A stretch of 64,000 nt of DNA from an uncultured Gammaproteobacteria bacterium (GCA_964504365.1 CAZDDW010000001.1:68293-132292); one strand, 5' to 3'; counted from the stretch's first letter, positions 33,712-62,921 are shown. Made by a program: numbers and translations. Notes: generated from the letters alone by a model not told the origin.

Positions 33712-36552
33712 ATGAAGCGCTTAATTATAAGGGCAACATCCTTCTTGTTAAGGTTAAAAGAAAGCAAAACAAAACCGTGGTTGGTTTTGGTCGGATTTGG
33801 TGTTGTTTTAACAGCCATTTTTTTGTTGCCTGAAGTTGTGTTTGCAACAGGTGAAGTAGGAGGAGAACCATCCGTAGTTGGTTTCATGGAGATGGCTATT
33901 GCCTGGATTGCGGGGTTCTTGGTTACTGTGGCCAAGATTCTTGGTTTAGGAATCGTTACTTTAATCAGTTTGATCATTGTACCGGTAATGCAGTACAACA
34001 ACTTTGCTAACTCAGCTGTGGTTGGTACAGGTTGGGCTGTTGTTCGTGACACAATGAACATTGGTTTTGTTATCGTGTTGCTCGTGATTGCTTTTGGAAC
34101 AATTATCGCTGGTGAATCAGGGTTTGGCGGACGTTTTAATTGGAAACAGAATTTACCGCGATTATTAATTTTTGCCATCTTGATCAACTTCAGCAGAATG
34201 CTTTGTGGACTAATGATTGATTTTGGTCAGGTGGTCATGCTGACTTTTGTAAATGCTATTCGTGATGTGGCTGGTGGAAACTTTATTCAACTGTTTGGTC
34301 TCCAAGATATAATTTCGATTAGCTCTAGTACGGTTGAGGACATGATTAATCAGGGTGAAGGACTAGACTCTTTTTGGTTGTTAGCATCGGCATTTGCTGC
34401 TGCTTTTATGATGGGTGTTGTTTTCCTAACCCTGATCTTCCTTTGCGTAATCTTGGTAATCCGCATCGTGACTCTTTGGATTTTGGTCGTGCTTTCACCA
34501 ATAGCATTTTTCCTAGGTGGTGCTGAAAAAACTTTAGGTAGTCAAGCTGGGGGAATGTACGCCGAGTGGTGGAAAAATTTTACGTCAATGGTTTTGATCG
34601 GTCCAGTTCTGGTTTTCTTCTTATGGTTAGCTTTGGCTGTGGCCGGAAGCGGGAGCATTGCCGCTTCAGAAGGTTTTACAACAACTAACTCTGGTGAAGC
34701 GGCTGGTTCGGCCGGTATTCCATTAGCAATTTTCGAAATGGATAAACTGATCAGCTTTGTTATTGGTATTGGTTTGCTTTGGGCTGGTTTTGATGCTGCT
34801 GGACGTATTGCTGGTGGCATGCCTGGTCAAGTTAAAGGAATTGTTAGTAGTTTGATTAAACCACAAGACGCTTTGCGCATGACTCAACGTTTGGCCATGA
34901 AAGGAGTTGGTGCTGTTGCCCCTGTGGCTGGTTTAGCTGCCGGGGGAGTTGGTTTGGCTGCTAGGGGAACAGGAAAAGTTGTTGCCGCACCGATCAAAGC
35001 AGGTGTGGCCGTAGGTAAGGCTGGTGTTGGTGTTGCAAAATGGGGTGCAAAAACAGGATACGCCGGTGCCAAGTGGGGTGCAAAAACAGGATACGCCGGT
35101 GCCAAGTGGGGTGCTAAGAAAGCAAAACCGTATGCGACCCAGATTCCAATTGGTAAAGGTAAAAAAGTTCAAGATATTGATAAAGTAGTTTCTGGCGAGG
35201 TGGCTAAGGCTGGAGACTGGTTGAAAACAAAAGGTGTTGCTGGTCGTTTTGCTGGTCGATATGTTAAGTCCAAGGCAACAACTCGAGTGCAGTCTCAGTA
35301 CAAAAAAGAACGTGAAGACGCTCAGGCACAGATGGGAAATTTTGCCGGTATGACCAAGGACGAAGTTTTGGAAGAAGCTCGCCGTGTTGCGGTTACACCT
35401 GAGGGACGAGCCCGTCAGCGCGCTGCTCGTTTGTATGCCAGGACAAATGGAAATATTCGCCGAAAGATGAGCACTGATGAGTATGCAGAGATGGTTGAAA
35501 GGGATAAAAAAGATGGGGCTGATAAGATGTGGAAAGGTGACAAGGCTACTAACAAGGAACTCAAAGATGCAGACTTGGCACGTATTGATGCGATTAAGGA
35601 CCCAGACCGAAGGAAGAAGGTAATGAAAGGGAAAACAGATGCAGAGGTCGTCAAAGGTTTGGACTCAACAGCTATTTCTGACGATGATACAGGGGAAGTA
35701 TGGAAGATGCTTGATGATCCAAAAAAGAAAATACGGCACGCAAACAAGGATTACACCGGAGCTGAATATCTTGAAAAATTTGGTACGTCTGCCCAGAAGG
35801 CAGCCGTTAAGAAGGTGAAAGGTATCGATGCCGATGCACAAGCCAAACTAGTTAGTGATCATGGACACTCAGCAACCACGGCTAGTGGAAAAGTTGCAGG
35901 TGCAAACCATGCCACAAAGCGATACTGGGCTGAAAATAATCCAGAGAAAATGTCATCTTCCGGATTGGCGGCTGATGGTGGTCAGTTAGCAGCTGAAATT
36001 GCCAAAGATACCAATAATCCAAAAAAGGCTGCGTTCTTGCGGGAGATTGAGGGTGATAAACAAAAGAAGGCTGCGTTCTTGGCTGGAACAGCTGGTAAGG
36101 GAACCACAAGTGCTGAGACGGCAAATATCCAGGCCAGCAGCTATGTAGTTAGTGGCGGGAACTTAAGTCAGTTGGGAAGCAACAGTGCAGAACGTCGAGG
36201 AGCGATTGATGCTTTGAAAGGAATTGATGCAGCCGCAATTGGTCAGCTAGCTGCGCAATCAGCAAACAAAACAATGCGGGCTCGCAACCCTGCTGATGGT
36301 GCTGCAGCATCAGCAGTATTTACAGATTTATTCAGTCAGATTGATAGTGCATATGTTTCTGGGCTAGATACCACTCACGGTTCTGCTGGTACATCGGATG
36401 AGGACAAGGCGGCTCTTGAAGGCACGGTCAGACAGTTGCTAACCACAATCACCCAGGCACAGAAAAAACGCATGGCTCCTGCTTCAGCCCCTGCGATGAC
36501 CACGCTTCAGAGTCAGTTACAAACAACCTTGAGCGCAATGAAGGCTCGATAA
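33712..36552 (+). CDS. VirB6/TrbL-like polytopic T4SS channel protein with a long K/A/G-rich C-terminal extension
   Basis: N-terminal ~450 aa with a signal peptide and multiple TM segments in TrbL-like arrangement. C-terminal ~500 aa hydrophilic, with a tandem KWGAKTGYAGA repeat. Confidence 0.55.
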   Translation: MKRLIIRATSFLLRLKESKTKPWLVLVGFGVVLTAIFLLPEVVFATGEVGGEPSVVGFMEMAIAWIAGFLVTVAKILGLGIVTLISLIIVPVMQYNNFANSAVVGTGWAVVRDTMNIGFVIVLLVIAFGTIIAGESGFGGRFNWKQNLPRLLIFAILINFSRMLCGLMIDFGQVVMLTFVNAIRDVAGGNFIQLFGLQDIISISSSTVEDMINQGEGLDSFWLLASAFAAAFMMGVVFLTLIFLCVILVIRIVTLWILVVLSPIAFFLGGAEKTLGSQAGGMYAEWWKNFTSMVLIGPVLVFFLWLALAVAGSGSIAASEGFTTTNSGEAAGSAGIPLAIFEMDKLISFVIGIGLLWAGFDAAGRIAGGMPGQVKGIVSSLIKPQDALRMTQRLAMKGVGAVAPVAGLAAGGVGLAARGTGKVVAAPIKAGVAVGKAGVGVAKWGAKTGYAGAKWGAKTGYAGAKWGAKKAKPYATQIPIGKGKKVQDIDKVVSGEVAKAGDWLKTKGVAGRFAGRYVKSKATTRVQSQYKKEREDAQAQMGNFAGMTKDEVLEEARRVAVTPEGRARQRAARLYARTNGNIRRKMSTDEYAEMVERDKKDGADKMWKGDKATNKELKDADLARIDAIKDPDRRKKVMKGKTDAEVVKGLDSTAISDDDTGEVWKMLDDPKKKIRHANKDYTGAEYLEKFGTSAQKAAVKKVKGIDADAQAKLVSDHGHSATTASGKVAGANHATKRYWAENNPEKMSSSGLAADGGQLAAEIAKDTNNPKKAAFLREIEGDKQKKAAFLAGTAGKGTTSAETANIQASSYVVSGGNLSQLGSNSAERRGAIDALKGIDAAAIGQLAAQSANKTMRARNPADGAAASAVFTDLFSQIDSAYVSGLDTTHGSAGTSDEDKAALEGTVRQLLTTITQAQKKRMAPASAPAMTTLQSQLQTTLSAMKAR

Positions 36553-36562
36553 ACATATTTCT

Positions 36563-38119
36563 ATGGCCCTTAAAAGGGAGGAATTACCAGCCAAAGTACA
36601 AAGCTTTTTGGAAAGCCCAGATTTAACCCAAAAAGCTTTTGATATTATTGAGAAGTATCAGGTGCCAGATGAGCAAAGTGGAGAAGTGGCATATATTATT
36701 GAGTGTGAGAATGAACAGGGTCAAATTCTTGATAAGAATTTACTGGCAAAGATCCCGCAAAGACTGCAAAAACTTACTGGATTAGATCCAGCTAAAGCAC
36801 AACAAATGGCAGTGGATTTGGTTGGAGCTTGGTTGTTGCCAATTGAAGATCAGGTTGGTGGAGTATCAGAGCTATTGAGTCAGTGGGGAGGTAAGCCTGG
36901 AGAGCATTCTGTAAAACAGGTTTCTAGAACAAATGTTACTGCTGATGAATTAGTTCGTGGTGTGGTGGAGGAGATGGGAATAAAATTTGAAGAGCCGGCA
37001 ATGGACAAACGACTGATCTTTATCTTGACTACCATGGCGCGCGGTGTTCGAACTGATTTGGATGTAATCAAGGCCTTGTCACGAAATAAAAAAGTAGGTG
37101 GTTTAGAAATGGAAGAAGGGCAGGCTAAGGAGATAGTTCAAAAGATAAAGTCGCATATTAGTGGATCTAAATTAGAAGAAGATAAGCCGGTGAGTGCTGA
37201 GGTAAAGCTTCCACCAAAGCGTGAAGTGCCCCCACCTCCAAAGTTTGATGCAACTGTAATTTCAAAACAGGACGAACAAGAGGCAGCCGCATTGGTAAAG
37301 AAGGTTACAAAAGTAGCCCAATCAATTTCAATCGAAGATGGGGTTAAGAGAGTAATCGAAGAGGTTGGTGGGCGTTTTAAAGATGAAAAAAGTAAAAAGC
37401 GTTTTGAAAAAATTGTTGATAGTCGATTGCGTGAAGTGCGTGATGCTTTTACAACGCGCACAGCACTTGAAGATCCAGTAGCCAAAGGTGGTTTGAATTT
37501 GAAAGGGAAAGAGCTGGTTGAGATCTTGCAGTCAATCGAAAAAGCCTTTGACGATTCACATCGAGTCATTGCTGAAAAGGCTGTTAAAGAAAAACAGAAG
37601 TTTGAGAAAAAGCAGGTGGAGAAAAAGCAGCAAGCAGAAGCTGATAAAGCAGAGGCCCTTGATCGACGCTATGCCAAGATGACTGGTCGACCAGCCAAGC
37701 AGCCACCAGCTGCAGTGCAGACCGAGATGTCACCGGCCAGTGTTCCGCCAAAGGGAACTAAACCAGCAGTTCAGGACATTGCTCCAGCTAGAAAGTTGGC
37801 TGGTCCAGTGCAAGAACTGGAGAATATGGATTTGGTTGGTTTCCGTCGCTTGGCTCAAGATCCAAACGAAGCCATCTTGAAAATAAAGGATAAGATTGAG
37901 CTGCTAGAATCAGAATCATATGCCAAGCGGATCGCTGGTGTTAAGGGTTGGCAAAGTAGTCCAGTAAATAAAATGTACGTTGATTTAACTCGTCAGGCCT
38001 TGGTCACGGGTAAACCTATTGAACAAGTGGCAGCTGCTAAACAAAAAGGCGGCAGTGACTCATTAAGCAAAGAAGAGATTCAAGCAATCATGAAACTGAA
38101 CAATCAGCTCAGATTCTGA
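36563..38119 (+). CDS. hypothetical hydrophilic K/E-rich protein within the T4SS-like cluster
   Basis: 518 aa, no TM segment. Assigned by operon context only. Confidence 0.4.
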   Translation: MALKREELPAKVQSFLESPDLTQKAFDIIEKYQVPDEQSGEVAYIIECENEQGQILDKNLLAKIPQRLQKLTGLDPAKAQQMAVDLVGAWLLPIEDQVGGVSELLSQWGGKPGEHSVKQVSRTNVTADELVRGVVEEMGIKFEEPAMDKRLIFILTTMARGVRTDLDVIKALSRNKKVGGLEMEEGQAKEIVQKIKSHISGSKLEEDKPVSAEVKLPPKREVPPPPKFDATVISKQDEQEAAALVKKVTKVAQSISIEDGVKRVIEEVGGRFKDEKSKKRFEKIVDSRLREVRDAFTTRTALEDPVAKGGLNLKGKELVEILQSIEKAFDDSHRVIAEKAVKEKQKFEKKQVEKKQQAEADKAEALDRRYAKMTGRPAKQPPAAVQTEMSPASVPPKGTKPAVQDIAPARKLAGPVQELENMDLVGFRRLAQDPNEAILKIKDKIELLESESYAKRIAGVKGWQSSPVNKMYVDLTRQALVTGKPIEQVAAAKQKGGSDSLSKEEIQAIMKLNNQLRF

Positions 38120-38131
38120 TAGTATATAAGT

Positions 38132-38563
38132 ATGGAACGATTTGTAGTACCACAATTTATTGATGTAGAAGACAAGATTATTGGTCCTGTAACAACACGC
38201 CAGTTTGTTTTAATGTTGTTTCCAGCCCTGACCGGAGGACTGTTTTTCAAGATTTTTGATTTCTCCTTGTTCCTTCTGGTTACAATCCCAATGGTAATCG
38301 CTTTTGGCTTACTTGCTTTTTTCAAAGTCAACGGCATGCCTTTACATTTTTTCTTATTAAATTTGTTGCAGAGCTTGCGTAAACCGACTTTAAGAGTGTG
38401 GGACAAAAATTTACAGGACGATGAGATTCGGCTGAGGCTTAAAGTTGAAAAAGTTGCACCTCCACCCTCACCCCCACGCAAAGCCCCAATTTCACGCAGC
38501 CGCTTACACGAGCTGACCTTAGTAGTAAATACTGGTGGCGTTTATCAACCAGAGGAAGAATAG
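38132..38563 (+). CDS. PrgI/VirB3-like small membrane protein
   Basis: 143 aa with two TM segments after TTRQFVLMLFPALTGGLFF. It sits directly upstream of the VirB4 homolog, as in Gram-positive T4SS. Confidence 0.5.
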   Translation: MERFVVPQFIDVEDKIIGPVTTRQFVLMLFPALTGGLFFKIFDFSLFLLVTIPMVIAFGLLAFFKVNGMPLHFFLLNLLQSLRKPTLRVWDKNLQDDEIRLRLKVEKVAPPPSPPRKAPISRSRLHELTLVVNTGGVYQPEEE

Positions 38564-38564
38564 T

Positions 38565-39245
38565 ATGCAATCAAAAAAATTAGCTAAAGCCAAACCAGGA
38601 CCAGCCACGCAGCGCTATCTTGATATTGCTGAGATCCGTGAGGATGTGGTCGTTCTTAAGGATGGGACCATGCGAGCTGTGATTATGGTTTCAAGTCTCA
38701 ACTTTGCCCTAAAGTCGGAAGATGAACAAACGGCCCTTATTCAATCTTACATGTCTTTTCTCAACGGTCTTGAGTTTCCGCTTCAGATAGTTATTCAGTC
38801 ACGTCGGATGAATATTGATTCTTATATAACTTCTTTAAAAACACAGGGTAAGAAAACAGAGAATGATGCTTTGCGAGCTCAGATTGGTGATTATTTAAGC
38901 TTTATTCAGGAGCTGGTTACTTTGGGCGAGATTATGCAAAAACGGTTCTATGTAGTTGTTCCTTATGACCCTAAGAGAAATAAGGCCAAGAGTTTTTGGC
39001 AACGTTTGGCCTCCGCTGTTTCACCAATTGCCAGATTGAAGTTAAAAGGTAAAGAGTTTGACGAGCGAAAAGATGAGTTGGTTAGTCGAGCTCAGCTGAT
39101 ACTTGGTCAGCTGAACAGCATGGGTCTACAAGCGGTTCCTTTGGATACTCAAGGTTTGATTGAATTGTACTATACTGTATACAACCCTGATATTTTTGAC
39201 ACAGAAAAGTTAGAGGATATAAGTAAGATAAGAGTTGACGAGTAA
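38565..39245 (+). CDS. VirB4/TraE-like ATPase, N-terminal domain, encoded as a separate ORF
   Basis: YLDIAEIREDVVVLKDGTMRAVIMVSSLNFALKSEDEQTALIQSYMSFLNGLEFPLQIVIQSRRMNIDSY matches the conserved VirB4 N-terminal domain. The ORF ends at a TAA 1 nt before the next ATG. Confidence 0.6.
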   Translation: MQSKKLAKAKPGPATQRYLDIAEIREDVVVLKDGTMRAVIMVSSLNFALKSEDEQTALIQSYMSFLNGLEFPLQIVIQSRRMNIDSYITSLKTQGKKTENDALRAQIGDYLSFIQELVTLGEIMQKRFYVVVPYDPKRNKAKSFWQRLASAVSPIARLKLKGKEFDERKDELVSRAQLILGQLNSMGLQAVPLDTQGLIELYYTVYNPDIFDTEKLEDISKIRVDE

Positions 39246-39246
39246 T

Positions 39247-41193
39247 ATGGCTATTGAAGTTGGAAAATTATCAAAAGCAACTCCGGCACCACCGGAAAAG
39301 CCAAAAGCTGTTAAACCGGAAAAGGCCAAGGTGGAGGCAGAGCGTGTTGCTCTTTCAGAAGAGCGTGAATATGTTAAAGGTGTGGTTTCTGTTCGCGACC
39401 TGATTGCCCCGGCTTCTTTTCAGGTTTTTCCAAAACATTTGCAGCTTGGTAGTAAGTTGGCCCGAACCTTCTTTATTATCGCTTATCCGCGTTATATTGG
39501 TGTTGGTTGGAGCTCGCCGGTCATTAATTTGAACTATACAATGGATGTGTCCATGTTCTTTTATCCTGTAAAAAGTGCTGTTATTTTGAAACAGATGCGT
39601 AAGAAAGTTGGAGTGCTTGAATCACAGATTGTGGCTGATTCAGAAAAGGGTAAGCCACGTGATCCAATTCGTGAAACAGCGTTACGTGATATTGAAAAGT
39701 TGCGTGATGATTTAACTCAAGGCGTAGAACATTTTTTCCAGTTTGCTTTTTACGTTACTATTTATGCTGATAACGAAGACGAGTTAGATAAAAGGAGTGA
39801 AGAGATTGAATCGATTTTTGGTTCGAAATTGATTTATTCACGCAAAGGTTTGTATCAGGCCGAGCAAGGCTTTAATTCGACCATGCCACTTGGTAATGAC
39901 GAGCTGATGATCACCTTTAACATGAATACTTCTCCGATTGCTTCCAGTTTTCCATTTATTTCTTCTGACCTGACTTCTGATGACGGCATCTTGTACGGCA
40001 TTAATCGACATAACAACAGCTTGATTTTGTTTGATCGTTTCAGTTTGCAAAATGCAAACTATGTTGTTTTTGCGACATCAGGCGCTGGAAAAAGCTACAC
40101 GATTAAATTAGAAATTATCAGGAGCATGATGCTAGGAACAGATATAATAGTTATTGATCCGGAAATGGAATACAAACGTTTATCAGATGCGGTCGGTGGA
40201 ACTTATATCAATATTTCACTCGCCTCAGAATCAAAAGTCAATCCGTTTGATTTGCCACGGCCAACTGGAGCAGCGGTGAAGGTTGATGATATTATTCGTT
40301 CCGCTGTGATTGTTCTTAAGGGTCTGCTACGGATCATGATCGGCCGTCCTGTCGGTGAAAAAGGTTCACTTGGTTTTACTCCAGAAGAAGATTCGTTACT
40401 TGATCGAGCATTGATTGAAACATATGCAAAGAAAGATATCACTCCAGCCACAGTTGATCTGACAGATATTGATCCACCAACCATGCAAGATTTACAAGAT
40501 ATTCTAGAGGGCATGGAAGGGACAGAAAATTTGGTTGCTCGTTTAAAGAAATATACTGAAGGAACATTTTCCGGTTTACTAAATTCACCAACGACTGTTG
40601 AGATGAATAATCAGTTAGTAGTTTTCTCTGTTCGTGATCTTGAAGATGAGCTGCGTCCTATTGCTCTGTACACGATCGTTAATTACATTTGGAACGTGGT
40701 TCGTTCAGAAAGCAAGAAACGAGTTCTGGCTATTGATGAGGCCTGGTGGTTAATGCAGCACGAAGATTCGGCTAAATTTATCTTTGCTTTAGTCAAGCGT
40801 GCTCGAAAGTACTATCTTGGAGTGACAACGATTACTCAGGACGTGAATGACTTCTTGCGCTCACCTTATGGTCAGGCGATCGTTACCAACTCGGCTATTC
40901 AGTTGTTAATGAAACAGTCACCAACCGCAGCTGATTTAGTGCAAAAGACTTTTGCTTTAACAGATTCTGAAAAATATTTATTAATGGAATCTGGGATTGG
41001 TGAAGGAATTTTCTTTGCTGGCAACAAGCACGCTGCAATTAAAGTGGTCGCTTCCTATACTGAGGACCAAATAATTACCACTGATCCAAAGCAACTCTTA
41101 GAGATCGAGCGACAGAAGAAAGAGTTTGCTGAGCAAATGAAAGCAGAAGCAGGAGAAGATGAAACAACAGAAGAAGTAAAAGAACAGAAATAA
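39247..41193 (+). CDS. VirB4/TraE-like T4SS ATPase (C-terminal ATPase domain)
   Basis: Walker A (FATSGAGKSYTIK), Walker B (VLAIDEAWWLM), and a CagE/TrbE-type C-terminal region. Confidence 0.8.
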   Translation: MAIEVGKLSKATPAPPEKPKAVKPEKAKVEAERVALSEEREYVKGVVSVRDLIAPASFQVFPKHLQLGSKLARTFFIIAYPRYIGVGWSSPVINLNYTMDVSMFFYPVKSAVILKQMRKKVGVLESQIVADSEKGKPRDPIRETALRDIEKLRDDLTQGVEHFFQFAFYVTIYADNEDELDKRSEEIESIFGSKLIYSRKGLYQAEQGFNSTMPLGNDELMITFNMNTSPIASSFPFISSDLTSDDGILYGINRHNNSLILFDRFSLQNANYVVFATSGAGKSYTIKLEIIRSMMLGTDIIVIDPEMEYKRLSDAVGGTYINISLASESKVNPFDLPRPTGAAVKVDDIIRSAVIVLKGLLRIMIGRPVGEKGSLGFTPEEDSLLDRALIETYAKKDITPATVDLTDIDPPTMQDLQDILEGMEGTENLVARLKKYTEGTFSGLLNSPTTVEMNNQLVVFSVRDLEDELRPIALYTIVNYIWNVVRSESKKRVLAIDEAWWLMQHEDSAKFIFALVKRARKYYLGVTTITQDVNDFLRSPYGQAIVTNSAIQLLMKQSPTAADLVQKTFALTDSEKYLLMESGIGEGIFFAGNKHAAIKVVASYTEDQIITTDPKQLLEIERQKKEFAEQMKAEAGEDETTEEVKEQK

Positions 41194-41194
41194 T

Positions 41195-41761
41195 ATGAGC
41201 AGACGAAATAAAATTATAATTGTTGTAGTTGCAGTACTGTTAATTCTGTTGGCTTTGTGGTTGCTTTGGTCAAGGTTTTTTAGAGTTGCACCTGAGACAA
41301 TAATAGTAATTCCTGAAGATGAGTTGGTGGCCGATATCGAGGAAACAGGTCCGGTTGAAATGATTGACGCTGAAGAATCATCTCGAGCACCGGTTGAAGT
41401 GTCTGTTGATTCCTTGGCAAGGACATTTGCTGAGCGTTATGCCAGCTATTCAAACGAGAGCGACTTTGCTAATTTGCACGACCTAGAACCACTGATGACT
41501 GAGTCAATGTGGGCTGAAACAGAAGTTTTAATTGATTCATTGGAGGTAGAAGATATATATCATGGTGTTACCTCGCGTGCGATTACGATCACTGTTCCTG
41601 CAATGGATGACAATGATTTAATGGTATCAGTTGAGGTGGTGATGCAGCGTGAAGATGCGCTAGGCAGTCCGCAGAATATTGAGATTAAGTATGAGACCTT
41701 GGTTTTGGATATGGTTAAGGAGTCTGGTACATGGAAGGTTGATGGAGCAACATGGCAATAG
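41195..41761 (+). CDS. membrane-anchored protein (N-terminal TM + periplasmic domain; VirB8-like position)
   Basis: 188 aa with N-terminal TM (IIIVVVAVLLILLALWLLW). Assigned by context only. Confidence 0.35.
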   Translation: MSRRNKIIIVVVAVLLILLALWLLWSRFFRVAPETIIVIPEDELVADIEETGPVEMIDAEESSRAPVEVSVDSLARTFAERYASYSNESDFANLHDLEPLMTESMWAETEVLIDSLEVEDIYHGVTSRAITITVPAMDDNDLMVSVEVVMQREDALGSPQNIEIKYETLVLDMVKESGTWKVDGATWQ

Positions 41762-51320: not shown

Positions 51321-51325
51321 AAATT

Positions 51326-52472: not shown

Positions 52473-53795
52473 TTATAATTCGGAAACCGATTTGATTCCT
52501 CGTAGAGTCAGATCGGTTTTTGTTTTGCTGGCTCTTGCTGGAACCCAGGCTGTGCTCATACCCAAGCGGGCGATCTCGTTTAGCCGACGCTCGATGAACG
52601 ATATTGATCGAACTTCACCACCAAGTCCAACTTCACCAAATACAACCACTCCTTCTTCGATCGGCTCGTTTTTTACAGCTGAGACTATAGCTGCAGCAAC
52701 AGCAAGATCAGCCGCTGGTTCATTCAGAGACAGGCCGCCGATCACGTTTACAAAAATGTCAGATTCGCCTAGTTTCAAACCAGCACGTTTAGACAAGATC
52801 GCAGCTAGCATTTGTAAGCGATTAGCGTCAAATCCACTAGCCCGTCGGACAGGTGTGCCATAAAAGGATTTATCAACCAGTGCTTGAACCTCGACTAAGA
52901 ATACACGCGAGCCTTCGACGGTTGCTGTGATCGCAGATCCAGGTGATTGGGTTCGTTCAGCCAAGAAGCGTGATGATGGATTTTCAATTGCGACCAAACC
53001 GTTCTCTTTCATCTCAAACACACCAACCTCGTCAGCAGACCCAAAACGATTTTTTGAAGCACGAAGTAGCCGTGTTGCATGTACCGGATCTCCTTCGAGA
53101 TTCAAAACAACGTCGACCAAGTGTTCTAATGTTTTTGGTCCAGCAACAGATCCATCCTTAGTTACTTGTCCTACCAAGATGATTGGCAGATCAGTTCGTT
53201 TAGCAAGTTCAACCAGCATGGCTGTTGCAGCTCGGACTAAGTTGGGAGAACCAGCAGCGCTTTCTATTTGCATTGAACTTAATGTTTGAACGGAATCCAC
53301 AATCAGTAGTGCTGGCTTAGCTTTCTCAACTGTGGCTATGATTGTGCCAATGTCGGTCGCTCCTAGATAGCTAACATTTTTTCCAGCGATGTCGAGTCGT
53401 TTAAATCGACCAGACAACTGACCAGCAGACTCTTCGCCAGATGCATAAATAATTTTTTCAGAACCGATTGATCCAGCGACCTGGGCAACAAGAGTTGATT
53501 TTCCAATCCCAGGTTCGCCAGCAATCAAAACAACTGATCCAGGGACAATCCCTCCACCAAGCACTCGGTCGACTTCAGAAATACCGGTGCCAGAACGCAC
53601 GGCCTCAAAAGATCCAGAACCGAGATTTTCAAGTTCGGTTGGTGCAGAGCGAGCAACCATTTTTTTGCCAGCAGAAACAGGAGGCCCTTCGACCTCCTCC
53701 TTGACCGTGCCCCAGGCACCACACTCAGTACAACGCCCGGTCCACTTAGTATATTGTGAATCACATTTAGAACAATGGAACATAGTAATTAACAA
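52473..53795 (-). CDS. radA: DNA repair protein RadA/Sms
   Basis: N-terminal C4 zinc finger (CSKCDSQ...CTECG), Walker A GEPGIGKST, KNRFG motif, Lon-like C-terminus. Confidence 0.92.
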   Translation of the reverse strand: MLITMFHCSKCDSQYTKWTGRCTECGAWGTVKEEVEGPPVSAGKKMVARSAPTELENLGSGSFEAVRSGTGISEVDRVLGGGIVPGSVVLIAGEPGIGKSTLVAQVAGSIGSEKIIYASGEESAGQLSGRFKRLDIAGKNVSYLGATDIGTIIATVEKAKPALLIVDSVQTLSSMQIESAAGSPNLVRAATAMLVELAKRTDLPIILVGQVTKDGSVAGPKTLEHLVDVVLNLEGDPVHATRLLRASKNRFGSADEVGVFEMKENGLVAIENPSSRFLAERTQSPGSAITATVEGSRVFLVEVQALVDKSFYGTPVRRASGFDANRLQMLAAILSKRAGLKLGESDIFVNVIGGLSLNEPAADLAVAAAIVSAVKNEPIEEGVVVFGEVGLGGEVRSISFIERRLNEIARLGMSTAWVPARASKTKTDLTLRGIKSVSEL

Positions 53796-55207
53796 CTAGA
53801 GGAATATGTTTTAATTGTGTTTGTGGTACAACCCCCTTCATACAGTTGAAAGTGCCAAATTTCTTTTGTATAGCGGTACCATCCTGCAGCATACATGATT
53901 TCAGCTAAGGTGCCAATTTTACTTGAATCAACCGTAGATTGGGATTTGTAGTTGACGTTCCAAGCCTCCTTGCCATCAGACGTCTTATATTTTAGATCAA
54001 CTGCACCACCAGTTCCATGCGGTGAGCTACCTGGCCAAGCCACGGCGCTAGGAATATTAGGAGTACGTCCTTCAGATTTAGCTTCCTTGATTTCATCACA
54101 AGCCAACTCAAGCTGTGTATGTAATGGACGCAGAGCACTTACAATAAACAACGTAAGATTACGCGACTGTGCTTGATCTCCAGCCCGCTTTAAAGCCTCG
54201 ACTGCTCCGGGTCCGATTCTCAAATAAGAATATTTACCTTCGATTGCTGGGTGAGAAGGGAGAGGAACCGCGTCTTCTGGAGCGAGGACACCTAATGTGG
54301 TTGGATCGACTTCATCGTATAGGGCGTCACGATCAGAACCATCGCCGGTTTTTTTACACCAGGCCTCACAATCGGCATGTGTTCCACAAAGCTTACCAAG
54401 AGCTGGGTCAAAAGATGCATCGTATCTATCCTCTGGAACATATGATCGTGTTACATACTTGAGTTGCAGCGGTTCAAACAAAGTCAGATTAGGATTAACA
54501 GTAAACAGAATTATATAACTTCCGATAAGTAATATCATCCCAGTGATTGCACCTCGGATTCGTGTTAGCCCTTTGTCTGGCTGTCCGATCATGTACTGGA
54601 CGCCACCAACCATGACCATTACTGTGGCAACAATTATCGCTGTGCTAAGCATCCATTTATAAAGAGCAATAACATATTCAGCCAAAAAGTTAACTTCCAA
54701 AATATCACCACGTTGTGCTATTGGCGAAAAACTAAGATTAGGAATATCAACGCTTAGATTGGGGATGATTGGATCGCTAGGCTCTTCAGCACCGAATGCG
54801 GCGTGCGTATCTTCGCAAGCATATAAAGAGGTTGCATACTCTGAGTCAGTTGGTTCAAAATATTCATACCGTTCTGAGCATTCGAGTTCGCATTCTGTCT
54901 CATCGTAGATGCCCAAGACTTGACAGTCCTCACCTTCATAACAAAAACAATTTCCACCAGCTGCTCGTCCGGCTTCTGTTAGACAGTCATTTACATAGTC
55001 GGTGTAATTTGGATCACTGGCTTCAACGACTGAACCGTTACCGTTGGTGTAGTCGGCAAGACAAGTATCTTGGCAATCAACCTCATCAACAATACCCAAC
55101 TCGACACACCCGTTATCATCGTTGTAACAAACACAGGTATCCCCAGCTGCCAATAGGGCGGTTGGCCAGAGTAAGATTGTTAGTGCAAGAATAAGAAAGT
55201 ACCGCAT
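53789..55207 (-). CDS. secreted Cys-rich / 2-TM pilin-like / M15 (VanY-type) peptidase fusion protein
   Basis: Signal peptide and two CxCY...GC...C modules. Two adjacent TM helices (STAIIVATVMVMVGGVQYM; GMILLIGSYIILFTV). C-terminal SxHxxGxAxD (SPHGTGGAVD) and ExxH (EIWH) M15 motifs. Confidence 0.6.
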   Translation of the reverse strand: MRYFLILALTILLWPTALLAAGDTCVCYNDDNGCVELGIVDEVDCQDTCLADYTNGNGSVVEASDPNYTDYVNDCLTEAGRAAGGNCFCYEGEDCQVLGIYDETECELECSERYEYFEPTDSEYATSLYACEDTHAAFGAEEPSDPIIPNLSVDIPNLSFSPIAQRGDILEVNFLAEYVIALYKWMLSTAIIVATVMVMVGGVQYMIGQPDKGLTRIRGAITGMILLIGSYIILFTVNPNLTLFEPLQLKYVTRSYVPEDRYDASFDPALGKLCGTHADCEAWCKKTGDGSDRDALYDEVDPTTLGVLAPEDAVPLPSHPAIEGKYSYLRIGPGAVEALKRAGDQAQSRNLTLFIVSALRPLHTQLELACDEIKEAKSEGRTPNIPSAVAWPGSSPHGTGGAVDLKYKTSDGKEAWNVNYKSQSTVDSSKIGTLAEIMYAAGWYRYTKEIWHFQLYEGGCTTNTIKTYSSSC

Positions 55208-55209
55208 AA

Positions 55210-56484
55210 TTATATATAACAAGCGCCACGATAATGGAAATGCATGTAGTCGTAGACCCCTTTCCAACGACCACCCCAATCAAAGTTATTTATTTGGAAA
55301 GCCTCTATAACCTCAGGAGGTAAATCATGCTGCCCGTTACTGATTCTTTCAAGTTCACTTTCACCGTGTAGGCCATTCTGACAAATAGTTACACAGTTTT
55401 CATGGCTACCACCACCGATACAGTACTGACAGCTCCCGCCTTCACGGCAGCTTCGTGGGCAGTTGATGTTTGTGTCTGGATTAACATCAATGGCTACCCC
55501 AAAAGCATGTGGACTGAGCTTGCCAGGTGAGTTTTTATTACAGCGCCAGTTATATGTTCCGCCAGCAGTTGAGCGAGTCGTATCGTAAGTAGTTGTTGTT
55601 GAAATTTGAGTAAAAGCTTTTTCAAAGGACTCAAGGGCCAGTTTATGGACTTTATAGCTTTGGCCGTTATGAGTTATGGTAACCAGATTGCGTTCGACCT
55701 CAGACTTGCTATTGCCATACGTGCTAAGCATGCAATCCTGCCATTTACTAACCCCCCATAAATCAGCCGCACATTCTCCTCCTTCTCCATAAGCCATACC
55801 AGCAATGTCTTCTGGAATTCCACCAATGTATTTAATCCGCAGTGGTTCAAATAAAGTTAGTTGAGGATTTACGGTATATAAAATAACATAGCTACCAAAG
55901 AGCAAAATTAAACCAGTTACCGCACTTCTAATTCTGGCCTTTCCTTTTTCAGGATCTTCGACCATGTATTGCACACCCCCGACCATGATCATTACAGTGG
56001 CAACAATTATTGCTGTGCTAAGCAACCATTTGTACAGTGCAACAACGTATTCACCTAACCAGTTTACTGTTAGGTAATCACCATCTTCTAAGAGTGGTGT
56101 GAAAGTTAGGTTTGGAATTTCAACCGCCAGATAAGGAACAACCGGTTTCCGTTTTTCAATCACAGGAGGACCAACTAATGCAGCTGCATGAGGACCAACT
56201 AATGCAGCTGCATCAAGACAATCATCTAAGGCATCTGTGTAATCTGCATCTGTTGTTTCAGAAAAGACAGCTCGAACAACACCCAGATCTTCTTCCATGT
56301 AGTCCTCATAAATTTGGTCACAATCAATTCGACATTGTTCAAGTGTGGTTGGATCATAAATGCCTGGACGATCACAACCGTCAATCGTGTTATAACAAAA
56401 ACATCGGTCGCCCTCTTCTGCTGCCAAAAGAGTTAGCGGCCATGAAAACAGTATTAATAGCGATATGGCTGCTATTTTTTTCAT
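55210..56484 (-). CDS. paralog of the upstream fusion protein (Cys-rich / 2-TM / M15 peptidase)
   Basis: The same architecture: CFCYNTIDGC, STAIIVATVMIMVGGVQYMV, SPHAFGVAID and DYMHFH. Confidence 0.6.
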   Translation of the reverse strand: MKKIAAISLLILFSWPLTLLAAEEGDRCFCYNTIDGCDRPGIYDPTTLEQCRIDCDQIYEDYMEEDLGVVRAVFSETTDADYTDALDDCLDAAALVGPHAAALVGPPVIEKRKPVVPYLAVEIPNLTFTPLLEDGDYLTVNWLGEYVVALYKWLLSTAIIVATVMIMVGGVQYMVEDPEKGKARIRSAVTGLILLFGSYVILYTVNPQLTLFEPLRIKYIGGIPEDIAGMAYGEGGECAADLWGVSKWQDCMLSTYGNSKSEVERNLVTITHNGQSYKVHKLALESFEKAFTQISTTTTYDTTRSTAGGTYNWRCNKNSPGKLSPHAFGVAIDVNPDTNINCPRSCREGGSCQYCIGGGSHENCVTICQNGLHGESELERISNGQHDLPPEVIEAFQINNFDWGGRWKGVYDYMHFHYRGACYI

Positions 56485-56488
56485 GCGT

Positions 56489-57145
56489 TTATTCTTGTTC
56501 TAGAAGCTTTTCACGTACAGCCTTTTCCAAGGTGTCGTAAGAGACGGCTCCAACGTAACGGTCTTCGCCAATAAATAAAGTAGGTAAGGCAGTTAAGGAC
56601 AGCGCATTTGCTTCTTCAAGGTTTTTTTCAATCTGCGGTAGAGTTTCTTGTTCTTCCCAACATTCAACAAAAGATTCAATATCTAATTCTATATTTGTTG
56701 CAATTGCTAAAATTGTTTGCTCGTTTAAGAGGGCCTGATTAGCTAAAACTGAATCATGAAATTCCCAAAAACGCCCTTGTTCATGAGCACATAGTCCAGC
56801 AACAGCCGAAGTAACAGCCATAATATCTGCCCCTTCGTTTGGGGTTAGTTTGACAACATGTTGAACATCATTAGGTAGCTCATTCTGTAGACGAACAATG
56901 TTGGTGGCCATGTCTGCACAAGCTGTGCAAGTTAAATCACTTAGCTCAACCAAAACAATGCTTGGTTCATCAGTTCCGCGGACCGGATCAATAAAAGTCA
57001 CAGTTGGTTCAGTAATTGTTACAACTGTTTCCGTCGTTTCTGTTTGTGTTCGAGTTGGTGGCTTGCTAGAGATATAAAAAACGATTAGCACCACAGCTGC
57101 CATGAATAGCACGCCAAGCCAAGAAAGAGTTCGGTGATGTTGCAT
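56489..57145 (-). CDS. DsbA-like thiol:disulfide oxidoreductase (thioredoxin fold, CxxC)
   Basis: N-terminal TM anchor, CTAC active-site motif, and a second Cys pair. Confidence 0.6.
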   Translation of the reverse strand: MQHHRTLSWLGVLFMAAVVLIVFYISSKPPTRTQTETTETVVTITEPTVTFIDPVRGTDEPSIVLVELSDLTCTACADMATNIVRLQNELPNDVQHVVKLTPNEGADIMAVTSAVAGLCAHEQGRFWEFHDSVLANQALLNEQTILAIATNIELDIESFVECWEEQETLPQIEKNLEEANALSLTALPTLFIGEDRYVGAVSYDTLEKAVREKLLEQE

Positions 57146-57147
57146 AG

Positions 57148-58359
57148 TTATTGGAGTTTTATCATTTGCAAAATACCAGAGTCAGCATCAGTAAAAAACA
57201 AAGTAGATCCGTCGTCAGAAAGAGTTAAGCTTTCCATGGACACATCGTCATCTGGGATGGCTAGTAAACTAGAAACACCAGAACTTAAGTCCACCTCGTA
57301 AACATAGTCGAAGGTGTCATCAGCCAAAGCTCGTTGTATTCCTGAGTTACTAGGCAGGTTCTGTGGTACTGCACAGAGAATAGAACTAGCACTAGAAAAA
57401 GTGCATTTATCAACCCAAGTTTCTATGCCGAGATTGCGTCGATTGTCGCCCATGTCATCTCCTGATCCATCGACCAACCAAAGTGTTGGTTTATAATCAT
57501 TGGTCTGCCCAGACACAGAGTAGAGGATTTGGTCTCCGCGAGGTGACCATTGAGCCTCAAAACCAAATCCTTCAACAACCAAACCTTTAAAGTTTTCCTC
57601 ACTTTTCCCAATCGGTAAAATCATCTTGCGACCAAAACCAGTTTGGGCTGGGCCGGTGTCAGAAAAAGCAATCACCTGATCGTTTGGCGACCAATTCACT
57701 TGCACCTGGTCTTCATTGTTACCCAAAGCAGCCATTCCTTGTGTTCTGGTACCGTCATCGCTAGTAATCACTAGCCAGCGATTGTTTGGATCAACACCTA
57801 AACTTTTTGTCACAATCTCACTGCCGCTTGGCGAAAAGTCAAAATCCTCCCAGTGACTTGGTAATGTCACCTGTACCTCTGTTTCAAAATTATAAACAAC
57901 GTTTGAGCCATCTGGAAATTCGATTACAGCCTTGTCTCCTTGATTGGCCCAGGCAACACTATCTACATCTGGAAATTTTTGATCTGACAATTGGGTCGCT
58001 GTACCGTCCTCATTGATTCTATAAAAATGATCGTCACTTGGGTCATAGTAGTTCATGCTTGATCCATCAGGGTTGATGCTAGTAGAACCGACACGGCCAG
58101 TAGTAAGGGAGGTGACAGCAGTTAAACCACCTCGGGCTATTTCTGATGCAACAAGTTCGTCAGCTTCTTCGGGAATAATTGTTGTTGGCAGGCCTTCTTC
58201 AGCTGTGGGGAGTCCGGTAACGACTCCATCCTCAATGATAACTTCTTCCTCGACCAATGCGGCTGGTCTAAAGAAAACCAAATATAGGGCAACTGCAATA
58301 CCAACAGTAACAACGATAAAGGCAGTGACTAGCAGTATTTTTTTAACTCGTTCTGACAT
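57148..58359 (-). CDS. membrane-anchored beta-propeller-like (TolB/PD40-like) protein
   Basis: N-terminal TM. Repeated D/W/G-containing blade-like segments. Tentative. Confidence 0.35.
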   Translation of the reverse strand: MSERVKKILLVTAFIVVTVGIAVALYLVFFRPAALVEEEVIIEDGVVTGLPTAEEGLPTTIIPEEADELVASEIARGGLTAVTSLTTGRVGSTSINPDGSSMNYYDPSDDHFYRINEDGTATQLSDQKFPDVDSVAWANQGDKAVIEFPDGSNVVYNFETEVQVTLPSHWEDFDFSPSGSEIVTKSLGVDPNNRWLVITSDDGTRTQGMAALGNNEDQVQVNWSPNDQVIAFSDTGPAQTGFGRKMILPIGKSEENFKGLVVEGFGFEAQWSPRGDQILYSVSGQTNDYKPTLWLVDGSGDDMGDNRRNLGIETWVDKCTFSSASSILCAVPQNLPSNSGIQRALADDTFDYVYEVDLSSGVSSLLAIPDDDVSMESLTLSDDGSTLFFTDADSGILQMIKLQ

Positions 58360-62918: not shown

Positions 62919-62921
62919 GAT

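What the first reader, a model, noticed from the sequence alone, without database searches (positions are those of the whole stretch)
53789..56484. Tandem paralogs fusing a Cys-rich secreted module, a VirB2/TrbC-like double-TM segment and an M15 (VanY-type) peptidoglycan peptidase
Both proteins have a signal peptide, one or two CxCY-x3-GC-x(n)-C-x3-C modules, two closely spaced hydrophobic helices (STAIIVATVM(V/I)MVGGVQYM...LL(I/F)GSY(I/V)IL(F/Y)TVNP) reminiscent of T4SS pilin topology, and a C-terminal domain with exact SxHxxGxAxD and (E/D)xxH LAS-peptidase motifs. Such an architecture is not a standard annotated family. It could be a cell-wall-breaching pilus or anchor component of the T4SS-like DNA-uptake machine or of an episymbiotic attachment structure.
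Basis: partly seen in the sequence, partly recalled or inferred. Interest (0 to 1): 0.65.

Follow-up and report, generated by a model that had tools for sequence, protein, structure and literature searches.

The report
Pilin-anchored cell-wall peptidases of a Patescibacterium
Two neighbouring genes of an ultrasmall (Patescibacteria) bacterium each join a type IV secretion pilin-like membrane hairpin to a cell-wall-cutting enzyme, a widespread fusion for which I found no description and which may supply the wall-breaching activity thought missing from these bacteria's secretion machine.

Summary
Genes A (53789-55207, minus strand) and B (55210-56484, minus strand) each encode four parts in order. 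These are a signal peptide, one or two six-cysteine modules, a two-helix membrane hairpin and an M15 zinc peptidase (VanY type in A, M15_4 or Ply500 type in B).

The hairpin belongs to Pfam PF18895 (T4SS_pilin). B scores just below threshold and A does not register. All 113 close relatives scanned match, and a profile built only from short pilin-like genes of other Patescibacteria, six of them just downstream of virB4, hits B at 1.7e-22 and A at 3.6e-18.

The architecture is common in Patescibacteria, mostly Uhrbacteria-type lineages. The N-terminal scaffold is conserved while the C-terminal enzyme varies (M15, M23, NlpC/P60, SLT, amidase, C39-like, YkuD), often in tandem arrays. A DsbA-like gene sits just upstream in 45 of 67 loci.

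In one Komeilibacteria locus and one Saccharibacteria locus the fusions lie inside the T4SS gene string. Here they lie 12.6 kb from virB4.

My best reading is a disulfide-stabilised, pilin-fold-tethered wall hydrolase that does the VirB1 job for the T4SS. I found no paper that describes the fusion. Function is inferred, not shown.

The parts
55210..56484 (-). Gene B, 424 aa: signal peptide, one Cys module, pilin-like hairpin, M15_4 peptidase
   Evidence: ORF. Identical to database protein P0001. Pfam PF13539 at 8.7e-15 and PF18895 at 1.6e-4.
56422..56484 (-). B signal peptide (aa 1-21, MKKIAAISLLILFSWPLTLLA)
   Evidence: Hydropathy and sequence. No predictor was run.
56218..56403 (-). B six-cysteine module (aa 28-89)
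   Evidence: Cys positions. Family-wide, the part before the hairpin has a median of 6 Cys and a 5.5% Cys density.
56166..56213 (-). Perfect 24-nt tandem duplication in the B linker (AAALVGPH / AAALVGPP)
   Evidence: TRF: 2.0 copies, 100% match.
55831..56157 (-). B pilin-like module (aa 110-218): PYLAVEIPNLTF motif, helix 142-175, basic loop EDPEKGKARIR, helix 178-205, NPQLT
   Evidence: Module HMM 163 bits. Short-pilin HMM 1.7e-22. AF2 pLDDT 85-96.
55213..55749 (-). B M15_4 (Ply500-like) zinc peptidase domain with a Cys-rich insert at aa 340-387. Zn motifs at nt 55486-55515 and 55237-55251.
   Evidence: Pfam. PDB 2vo9 L-Ala-D-Glu peptidase at 1.4e-3. PHROG endolysin families. Motifs.
53789..55207 (-). 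Gene A, 472 aa: signal peptide, two Cys modules, pilin-like hairpin, VanY-type peptidase
   Evidence: ORF. Identical to P0007. Pfam PF02557 at 1.6e-8.
54815..55135 (-). A Cys modules 1 (aa 25-75) and 2 (aa 87-131)
54458..54787 (-). A pilin-like module (aa 141-250): PNLSVDIPNLSF, two helices, loop QPDKGLTRIR, NPNLT
   Evidence: Module HMM 158 bits. Short-pilin HMM 3.6e-18.
53792..54211 (-). A VanY/M15 zinc peptidase domain. Zn motifs at nt 53996-54025 and 53849-53863.
   Evidence: Pfam. PDB YodJ 4ox3 and 4mph at about 1e-3. Motifs.
56489..57145 (-). Membrane-anchored DsbA-like thiol oxidoreductase, the conserved upstream partner
   Evidence: Pfam Thioredoxin_4 at 1.3e-16 and DSBA at 1e-9. Immediately upstream of the fusion gene or array in 45 of 67 loci.
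57148..58359 (-). 403-aa protein of unknown function, a conserved partner upstream of DsbA (N-terminal TM segment, weak PD40 hint)
   Evidence: Present in 30 of 67 loci. Also next to the pilin fusions in T4SS strings L038 and L061.
33712..41761 (+). T4SS-like cluster: VirB6-like 946 aa, a 518-aa protein, PrgI/VirB3-like (38132-38563), TraC-like (38535-39245), VirB4 (39235-41193), a 188-aa protein. It contains no small pilin gene.
   Evidence: Pfam P-loop_TraG 2.3e-28 and PrgI 3.8e-9. Homologs lie in T4SS strings of other loci. Pilin HMM scans of the window find only genes A and B.

Best explanation
What it is (shown). Each gene encodes a secreted bitopic hairpin protein. Both ends lie outside the cell and are disulfide-rich: an N-terminal six-Cys module and a C-terminal M15 peptidoglycan peptidase. 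They are joined by a two-helix membrane hairpin homologous to the PF18895 'T4SS pilin' family of Patescibacteria. The short basic loop of the hairpin faces the cytoplasm.

The family is modular. The scaffold of signal peptide, Cys module and pilin hairpin is conserved. The C-terminal enzyme is exchanged among M15, M23, NlpC/P60, SLT, amidase, C39-like and YkuD domains. A DsbA-like oxidoreductase gene and a 403-aa partner gene travel with it.

How it most likely works (inferred).
1. After Sec insertion, the co-encoded DsbA-like enzyme oxidises the two ectodomains.
2. The pilin-fold hairpin keeps the enzyme in the membrane and lets it dock with, or be handled by, the VirB3/VirB4/VirB6-type T4SS platform as ordinary pilins are.
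3. Stem-peptide cleavage is therefore confined to the site where the T4SS channel or pilus must cross the wall. B is predicted to cut L-Ala-D-Glu (Ply500-like) and A is a VanY-type carboxy- or endopeptidase.

On this reading the proteins are a VirB2-VirB1 fusion supplying the wall-opening function that Patescibacterial T4SS loci are reported to lack. Whether the wall cut is the cell's own or the host's is open.
For: Architecture and topology.
- establish the domain order.
- Cys density is 5.5% before the hairpin and 4.0% after it, 0.2% within it, and 0.5% in other window proteins.

Pilin homology.
- 113 of 113 and 62 of 69 relatives match PF18895, with TrbC cross-hits to 6.7e-8.
- An HMM built from short pilin-like genes of other Patescibacteria, six of them 0.8-2.3 kb downstream of virB4, hits B at 1.7e-22 and A at 3.6e-18.

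Modularity.
- C-terminal domains among 113 relatives: VanY 14, M23 13, C39_2 12, NlpC/P60 12, SLT 8, M15_4 8, Amidase_2 2, 3D 2.
- Where a domain could be assigned, genes of one array carried different enzymes.
- The same syntenic slot holds VanY in L004 and NlpC/P60 in L006.

DsbA pairing. A DsbA-like gene lies immediately upstream in 45 of 67 loci, including second loci that share no other synteny.

T4SS linkage.
- L038 (Komeilibacteria) has one co-directional string: PrgI, TraC-like, VirB4, p188, a 293-aa ORF, p403, DsbA, then the pilin fusion P0016, which carries M15-like SGHKKGQALD and EWWH motifs.
- L061 (Saccharibacteria) has VirB6-like, PrgI, TraC-like and VirB4, followed by pilin::YkuD, pilin::SLT and a p403 homolog.
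- virB4 lies 7-10 kb away in eight Uhrbacteria-type loci.
- No other pilin-like gene was found in this window or in those loci.

Literature.
- In S. epibionticum the T4SS locus holds separate essential genes: six PF18895 pilins, a protein with a Hedgehog/DD-peptidase (LAS) fold, and a lysozyme/cysteine-peptidase protein (PMC10633639 supplement).
- Most Patescibacteria with VirB2-like genes lack a recognisable VirB1 (PMC12102498).
- In classical systems virB1, virB2 and virB3 are adjacent.
Against: - In this window the genes are 12.6 kb and about 13 genes from virB4, on the opposite strand, embedded among housekeeping genes (ClpC, RadA).
- A second conserved locus type (DsbA, pilin::X, UvrA) has no T4SS genes nearby.
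- Window protein A does not match PF18895 on its own, and B is below the curated threshold.
- Homology to classical VirB2/TrbC was not demonstrated (hhalign probability 0.9%).
- Foldseek finds only generic helical hairpins.
- A pilin::YkuD fusion (an L,D-transpeptidase domain) fits general wall remodelling at least as well as hole punching.
- No expression, localisation, interaction or activity data exist. All mechanistic steps are inferred.
Confidence: 0.5

Rival explanations
1. General membrane-tethered autolysins. The pilin-derived hairpin is only a reused membrane anchor. The enzymes remodel the cell's own wall during growth and division, independently of the T4SS.
For: - The genes sit in core-genome, housekeeping contexts at two conserved loci, next to RadA and UvrA.
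- There are several copies per genome, covering a near-complete autolysin repertoire (amidase, muramidase/SLT, M23, NlpC/P60, M15) and even an L,D-transpeptidase.
- NCBI annotates them as ordinary DD-carboxypeptidases.
Against: - The hairpin and its flanking motifs (PxLxVxIPxLxF, NPxLT, basic loop) are far more conserved than a mere anchor needs: 13 invariant columns, and 66% identity between A and B.
- Orthologous slots carry different catalytic domains, which is unusual for housekeeping enzymes.
- The fusions and their p403 partner lie inside T4SS gene strings in L038 and L061.
Confidence: 0.25
2. Armed pilus or host-directed weapon. The fusions are polymerised into, or cap, the T4SS pilus, or are released from it. 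They digest the host bacterium's wall at the epibiont-host contact, in the manner of a polymorphic-toxin family with a constant delivery module and swappable enzymatic heads.
For: - A constant N-terminal scaffold with variable C-terminal hydrolases, in tandem arrays.
- N-out/C-out topology, like that of VirB2-type pilins. From my own knowledge of solved conjugative pili (not tested here), both termini lie on the outer surface of the filament.
- These are the only pilin-like genes near virB4 in this lineage.
- The T4SS and its pilins are essential for epibiotic growth in S. epibionticum (PMC10633639).
Against: - No immunity-like gene follows the fusions; RadA or UvrA is downstream.
- Ectodomains of about 100 aa and about 200 aa on every subunit would be hard to pack into a VirB2-type helical filament (inference).
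- No evidence of cleavage or release.
- The YkuD transpeptidase head does not fit a lytic weapon.
Confidence: 0.2
3. Remnant of a prophage lysis cassette: a holin-like TM hairpin fused to an endolysin.
For: B's catalytic domain resembles phage endolysins. It matches PHROG endolysin families at 2.6e-5 to 1.8e-3, Ply500 and a Bacillus phage L-Ala-D-Glu peptidase.
Against: - No holin or other phage family matches the hairpin or the neighbouring genes.
- The locus is syntenic core chromosome across many species.
- The signal peptide plus N-out/C-out hairpin and the PF18895 matches do not fit holins.
Confidence: 0.02

Closest known systems
VirB2-like pilins of the Patescibacteria T4SS (Pfam PF18895 T4SS_pilin; Quinonero-Coronel et al. 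2025, PMC12102498; essential pilin array of S. epibionticum, Wang et al. 2023, PMC10633639)
   Same: Signal peptide, two hydrophobic helices with a short basic loop, profile-level homology, tandem arrays of divergent copies, and location within about 20 genes of virB4.
   Different: The window proteins are 424-472 aa, against about 100-140 aa for the known pilins. They carry a disulfide-rich N-terminal module and a C-terminal peptidoglycan enzyme. They have an extra conserved PxLxVxIPxLxF segment before the first helix. They travel with a DsbA-like gene. I found no paper that describes the fusion.
Classical VirB2/TrbC pilins (PF04956), for example Agrobacterium VirB2
   Same: Topology. The gene neighbourhood logic virB1-virB2-virB3 is here collapsed into one polypeptide. 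Some family members give weak TrbC profile hits.
   Different: No significant profile-profile match. No evidence of cyclisation or processing. The window proteins have large ectodomains.
VirB1-type wall hydrolases of monoderm T4SS (PrgK of pCF10, TraG of pIP501, CwlT of ICEBs1), as cited in PMC12102498
   Same: Membrane-anchored, multi-domain peptidoglycan hydrolases dedicated to a T4SS. Enzyme types are interchangeable (SLT, CHAP/NlpC-P60, M23).
   Different: In those proteins the anchor is a plain N-terminal TM segment, not a pilin-fold hairpin. Here the catalytic domains are M15 peptidases. The genes are not inside the T4SS operon in this window.
M15/LAS zinc peptidases: VanY/YodJ-type DD-carboxypeptidases and Ply500-type L-alanyl-D-glutamate endolysins
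   Same: Pfam matches above threshold. H-x6-D and [ED]xxH zinc motifs are present.
   Different: Those enzymes are soluble or carry wall-binding domains. None is known with a pilin-like hairpin. B has a roughly 45-aa six-Cys insert inside the catalytic domain.

Membership tests
PF18895 T4SS_pilin (Patescibacterial VirB2-like pilins) | Profile match at or above Pfam's curated threshold (26.6 bits) | tested here: inconclusive
   B scores 22.1 bits (E 1.6e-4). A has no hit at E <= 1. However, 113 of 113 and 62 of 69 relatives that share the module at 40-77% identity match. A short-pilin HMM hits B at 1.7e-22 and A at 3.6e-18.
PF18895 T4SS_pilin (Patescibacterial VirB2-like pilins) | Signal peptide followed by two hydrophobic helices joined by a short basic loop | tested here: met
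   Hydropathy. AF2 helices 142-175 and 178-205 with pLDDT above 90. Loops EDPEKGKARIR and QPDKGLTRIR.
PF18895 T4SS_pilin (Patescibacterial VirB2-like pilins) | Small single-domain protein (about 100-140 aa) | tested here: not met
   The proteins are 424 and 472 aa, with extra N- and C-terminal domains.
PF18895 T4SS_pilin (Patescibacterial VirB2-like pilins) | Encoded in or next to the T4SS gene cluster | tested here: inconclusive
   In the window the genes are 12.6 kb and about 13 genes from virB4, on the opposite strand. Homologous fusions are contiguous with T4SS genes in L038 and L061, and 7-10 kb away in eight other loci.
PF18895 T4SS_pilin (Patescibacterial VirB2-like pilins) | Polymerises into an extracellular pilus | not testable with these tools
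   Needs microscopy or biochemistry. It has not been shown even for the short Patescibacterial pilins.
Classical VirB2/TrbC (PF04956) | Detectable homology to bona fide VirB2/TrbC | tested here: not met
   TrbC scores E 0.015 for B and 0.91 for A. hhalign against 7 annotated VirB2/TrbC proteins gives probability 0.9% and E 0.06. The PDB sequence search found no pilin. Foldseek returned no pilin hit. Two relatives reach 6.7e-8.
Peptidase M15 (VanY PF02557 / Peptidase_M15_4 PF13539; LAS fold) | Profile match above the curated threshold | tested here: met
   A: VanY 34.9 bits against 25. B: M15_4 55.5 bits against 25.
Peptidase M15 (VanY PF02557 / Peptidase_M15_4 PF13539; LAS fold) | Zinc ligand and catalytic motifs SxHxxGxAxD and [ED]xxH | tested here: met
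   A: aa 395-404 and 449-452. B: aa 324-333 and 412-415. The motifs align with those of Ply500 and YodJ.
Peptidase M15 (VanY PF02557 / Peptidase_M15_4 PF13539; LAS fold) | Hydrolysis of peptidoglycan stem peptides, and the bond cut | not testable with these tools
   Needs an enzyme assay with muropeptide analysis.
VirB1-type T4SS wall hydrolases of monoderms (PrgK/TraG/CwlT) | Membrane-anchored peptidoglycan hydrolase encoded within the T4SS operon and required for its function | tested here: inconclusive
   Anchor and hydrolase are present. Operon membership is not met in this window but is met by homologs in L038 and L061. The requirement for function is untestable here.
Polymorphic toxin systems | Constant N-terminal delivery region with variable C-terminal toxin domains | tested here: met
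   plus the swapped domains at the same syntenic slot.
Polymorphic toxin systems | Cognate immunity gene immediately downstream | tested here: not met
   The downstream gene is RadA at the first locus or UvrA at the second. There is no small conserved ORF.

The most novel reading that the evidence does not exclude
The Patescibacterial T4SS builds an enzymatically armed filament. Pilin subunits carrying interchangeable peptidoglycan hydrolases are extracted from the membrane by VirB4 and incorporated into, or placed at the tip of, the pilus. The pilus then digests its way through the host bacterium's wall, opening the conduit on which the epibiotic lifestyle depends. The array of different enzyme heads would be a host-range toolkit matched to host wall chemotypes.
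Probability: 0.2. Interest if true: 0.9.

Novelty: new variant of a known kind. Interest (0 to 1): 0.62.

Why it matters
The T4SS of Patescibacteria is widespread across the phylum and is essential for epibiotic growth in the one species tested, yet its function is described as 'completely unknown' (PMC11665869). It is unusual among monoderm systems in having VirB2-like pilins, and it is reported to lack VirB1 in most genomes (PMC12102498).

A large family in which the pilin fold is covalently joined to swappable wall hydrolases offers three things:
1. A candidate for the missing wall-breaching activity.
2. A Rosetta-stone link between pilins and the essential M15-fold and lysozyme genes of the S. 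epibionticum T4SS locus.
3. Concrete, testable proteins for asking whether this machine remodels the epibiont's own wall or attacks the host's.

It also means that counts of 'VirB2-like pilins' obtained with PF18895 may include several-hundred-residue enzymes.

Tried and rejected
- Solved structures by sequence. A profile search of the hairpin module against PDB sequences found no pilin.
- Classical VirB2. hhalign of the module (154 sequences) against 7 annotated alphaproteobacterial VirB2/TrbC proteins was not significant, although it aligned in register over the first helix.
- Other pilin genes. A search for a small stand-alone pilin gene in the window's T4SS cluster found none. One 57-aa antisense hit at 62752-62922 is judged spurious.
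- Prophage lysis cassette. Rejected: no phage genes, no holin match, and a syntenic core locus.
- Polymorphic toxin with immunity gene. There is no immunity candidate.
- Operon signals. Promoter and terminator scans were no better than shuffled sequence.
- Cys modules. Pfam, NCBIfam and PHROGs give no family for them.
- Literature. Searches for the fusion found nothing. This included PF18895, T4SS_pilin, combinations of pilin, hydrolase and Patescibacteria, and the supplementary files of PMC12102498 as held (one was cut when stored).

Full report
1. WHAT IS IN THE SEQUENCE

The two ORFs are real and adjacent on the minus strand. Gene B runs 55210-56484 (424 aa). Gene A runs 53789-55207 (472 aa from the ATG). 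The mechanical ORF list extends A to a TTG at 55279, but the ATG form is the one present in public databases (P0007).

Both proteins begin with a hydrophobic signal-peptide-like segment. B then has one six-cysteine module and A has two. A low-complexity linker follows. In B the linker contains a perfect 24-nt tandem duplication at 56166-56213.

Next comes a module of about 110 aa made of:
- a conserved PxLxVxIPxLxF segment;
- two long hydrophobic helices joined by a short basic loop (EDPEKGKARIR in B, QPDKGLTRIR in A);
- an NPxLT motif.

Last is a C-terminal M15 zinc peptidase with exact SxHxxGxAxD and [ED]xxH motifs. Pfam places A's domain in VanY (34.9 bits, cutoff 25) and B's in Peptidase_M15_4 (55.5 bits, cutoff 25). 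The nearest solved relatives by sequence are YodJ and VanY-like carboxypeptidases for A, and the Listeria phage endolysin Ply500, an L-alanyl-D-glutamate peptidase, for B.

A and B are 49% identical over the Cys module plus hairpin. Their catalytic domains are not detectably similar to each other. They are therefore paralogs of a scaffold carrying two different M15 heads, not simple duplicates.

2. IS THE HAIRPIN PILIN-LIKE?

Taken alone, B matches Pfam PF18895 (T4SS_pilin) just below threshold (22.1 bits against 26.6, E 1.6e-4) and TrbC weakly. A shows only a TrbC trace. The family context settles the question.

- The 16 database homologs of B mostly carry PF18895 above threshold.
- A profile of the module (alignment A2) finds 39,038 cluster representatives at E <= 1e-3 and 250 at E <= 1e-30 among 1.84 billion proteins.
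- All 113 of the best representatives scanned match PF18895, with a best E of 1e-27.
- So do 62 of 69 proteins from genome loci.
- A few also match classical TrbC/VirB2, down to 6.7e-8.

The most direct test used an HMM built only from short pilin-like genes of other Patescibacteria. Six of these lie 0.8-2.3 kb downstream of virB4. That HMM hits B at 1.7e-22 and A at 3.6e-18.

Homology to classical alphaproteobacterial VirB2 could not be shown. hhalign gave a probability of 0.9%, although the alignment was in register over the first helix. Structure searches returned only generic hairpins. The correct statement is therefore this: the module is a member, in extended form, of the Patescibacterial T4SS_pilin family. 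The link of that family to VirB2 rests on Pfam's curation, weak cross-hits and gene neighbourhood.

3. TOPOLOGY

The signal peptide puts the N-terminus outside. The basic loop, which has a conserved K and R across the family, fits a cytoplasmic position. The second helix returns the chain to the outside.

The cysteine distribution supports this independently. Across 140 family members the Cys density is 5.5% before the hairpin, 0.2% within it and 4.0% after it. It is 0.5% in 15 other proteins of this window. The N-terminal part has a median of six cysteines, and the count is even in 79% of members. Both ectodomains are therefore very probably disulfide-bonded.

4. THE FAMILY IS MODULAR AND TRAVELS WITH DsbA

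Among 113 close representatives the C-terminal domain is:
- VanY in 14;
- M23 in 13;
- C39_2-like in 12;
- NlpC/P60 in 12;
- SLT in 8;
- M15_4 in 8;
- Amidase_2 in 2;
- 3D in 2;
- glucosaminidase in 1;
- a GDSL lipase in 1;
- unassigned in the rest.

A few members lack a C-terminal domain altogether.

A scan of one genome per species found 67 loci. Where the record titles are informative they name Patescibacteria, mostly Uhrbacteria. The many MAG records labelled 'Gammaproteobacteria' are discussed under item 8.

Tandem arrays of 2-4 long fusion genes occur in 21 of 74 loci. In the three arrays examined, the members that could be assigned carry different heads: 3D plus NlpC/P60, C39_2 plus NlpC/P60, and C39_2 plus VanY. 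The window's M15_4 plus VanY pair is one instance of this pattern.

A membrane-anchored DsbA-like gene (56489-57145 here) lies immediately upstream of the gene or array in 45 of 67 loci. This includes a second conserved locus type (DsbA, pilin::X, UvrA) that shares nothing else with the first. A 403-aa protein of unknown function precedes DsbA in 30 loci.

5. RELATION TO THE T4SS

The window holds a T4SS-like cluster on the plus strand at 33.7-41.8 kb. It comprises a VirB6-like protein, PrgI/VirB3, a TraC-like protein, VirB4 and a 188-aa protein. It has no small pilin gene. Genes A and B are the only pilin-like ORFs in the 64 kb. They lie 12.6 kb and about 13 genes from virB4, on the other strand, in a tight gene string: LemA, M48, ClpC, p380, p403, DsbA, B, A, RadA.

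The same string is conserved in distant relatives. There the slot holds a single fusion gene with a different head (VanY in L004, NlpC/P60 in L006), and virB4 lies only 7-10 kb away.

Two loci close the gap.
- L038 (Komeilibacteria) has one co-directional string. It runs p518-like, PrgI, TraC-like, VirB4, p188, a 293-aa ORF, p403, a 95-aa ORF, DsbA, pilin fusion, two ORFs, RadA. The pilin fusion is P0016, which has M15-like SGHKKGQALD and EWWH motifs.
- L061 (a Saccharibacteria MAG) has the T4SS genes VirB6-like, PrgI, TraC-like and VirB4. After two short ORFs these are followed by pilin::YkuD, pilin::SLT and a full-length p403 homolog.

In the genetically studied Southlakia epibionticum the T4SS locus contains the same ingredients as separate genes, all essential. 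They are six small PF18895 pilins (SEML1_0014-0019), a protein with a Hedgehog/DD-peptidase (LAS, the M15 fold) C-terminus (SEML1_0007), and a lysozyme/cysteine-peptidase protein (SEML1_0006) next to virB4 (PMC10633639 supplement). This is a Rosetta-stone pattern: components that are separate in one lineage are fused in another.

6. MECHANISM

Shown: the domain composition, the topology indicators, the modularity, the DsbA pairing and the gene-context link to the T4SS.

Inferred: the DsbA-like enzyme oxidises the ectodomains. The pilin-fold hairpin keeps the hydrolase in the membrane and lets the T4SS platform recognise it as it recognises pilins. Wall cleavage is thereby confined to the site where the channel or pilus crosses the wall, which is the VirB1 function. 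I give this reading 0.5.

This would account for the published observation that most Patescibacteria with VirB2-like genes lack VirB1 (PMC12102498). The window genes would probably have been counted there as pilins, because the authors used PF18895 with i-E < 0.001 within 20 genes of virB4.

Three rival readings remain.
- T4SS-independent housekeeping autolysins that use a recycled anchor (0.25). This is favoured by the housekeeping contexts, the second UvrA locus, the broad enzyme repertoire and the YkuD transpeptidase head.
- A host-directed armed pilus or effector family (0.2). This is favoured by the constant-scaffold, variable-head pattern and by the absence of other pilins nearby. It is disfavoured by the missing immunity genes and by steric considerations.
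- A prophage lysis remnant (0.02). This is rejected on context and by the PHROGs scan.

7. COMPARISON WITH WHAT IS KNOWN, AND NOVELTY

All the building blocks are known. The Patescibacterial VirB2-like pilins, including their arrays, were described in 2023-2025 (PMC10633639, PMC12102498, PMC12857230). I found no paper in the searchable library, and nothing in the supplementary files held for PMC12102498, that mentions a pilin-hydrolase fusion, the Cys module or the DsbA pairing. Database names are 'D-alanyl-D-alanine carboxypeptidase family protein' or 'hypothetical'.

I therefore class this as a new variant of a known kind. It is a real, widespread and so far undescribed architecture whose function is still inferred.

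8. CAVEATS

- Structure-based confirmation of the pilin fold was not obtained.
- The AF2 model is confident for the hairpin and the core of the peptidase, but not for the Cys module or for the Cys-rich insert in B.
- The genome scan used sequence patterns specific to the long subfamily, so it says nothing about how many short pilins the same genomes hold.
- Many MAG records in the scan are labelled 'Gammaproteobacteria' but carry the Patescibacteria-type synteny, so I treat those labels as unreliable.

Noticed in passing
window 17294-26890 (+): A single 3198-aa ORF with a signal peptide and very many cysteines and acidic residues. It looks like a giant secreted or surface protein lying upstream of the T4SS-like cluster.
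   Followed up: no
window 27057-27743 (-), 29605-30321 (-), 30800-32920 (+): Two lipoprotein-like proteins and a 706-aa M23 peptidase (Pfam 7.1e-10) share long poly-Asp/Thr tracts of the DDDDxT type. The M23 protein sits at the edge of the T4SS cluster and could be another VirB1-type candidate.
   Followed up: partly
window 33712-42462 (+): A T4SS-like cluster: VirB6-like 946 aa, a 518-aa protein, PrgI, a TraC-like protein, VirB4, a 188-aa protein, then a ComF-like gene. No coupling protein, relaxase or small pilin gene is present in the window.
   Followed up: partly
window 56166-56213: A perfect 24-nt tandem duplication inside the linker of gene B, encoding AAALVGPH/AAALVGPP. It looks like a recent slippage event in a low-complexity spacer.
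   Followed up: yes
window 55324-55467 (gene B aa 340-387): A six-cysteine insert of about 45 aa (CPRSC..C..C..C...C) lies between the two zinc motifs of the M15_4 domain. It is conserved in P0003 and P0004 and has low AF2 confidence. It could be a disulfide knot or an extra metal site; its role is unknown.
   Followed up: no
window 57148-58359 (-); L038 7251-8492; L061 10779-11915: A 403-aa protein with no family assignment (N-terminal TM segment, weak PD40 hint). It is a conserved partner of the DsbA and pilin-fusion genes, and it also appears next to the pilin fusions inside T4SS gene strings of Komeilibacteria and Saccharibacteria.
   Followed up: partly
L022, L033-L036, L042, L050, L053, L071: A second conserved locus type in the same genomes: solute-binding protein (-), DsbA-like gene, pilin::X, UvrA. 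It has no T4SS genes nearby.
   Followed up: partly
P0017, P0018, P0136: Single polypeptides containing 3-6 tandem pilin modules. P0017 also carries an SLT domain. These appear to be fused pilin arrays.
   Followed up: no
L010/L022 (OZ246408.1) and many CAZ*/CAY* records: MAGs titled 'uncultured Gammaproteobacteria bacterium' carry the Patescibacteria-type synteny, and one is a 1.0-Mb chromosome. The taxonomic labels look wrong.
   Followed up: no
window 50142-52459 (+): An unknown 392-aa secreted protein and a TMEM43-family protein (Pfam 9.3e-56) sit between RecG and RadA. Relatives have nothing there, so this looks like a lineage-specific insertion into the conserved block.
   Followed up: no
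L062, L065, L069 (Gracilibacteria): Short pilin homologs in Gracilibacteria. The L062 reading frame continues through an in-frame TGA, as expected if these genomes use genetic code 25.
   Followed up: no
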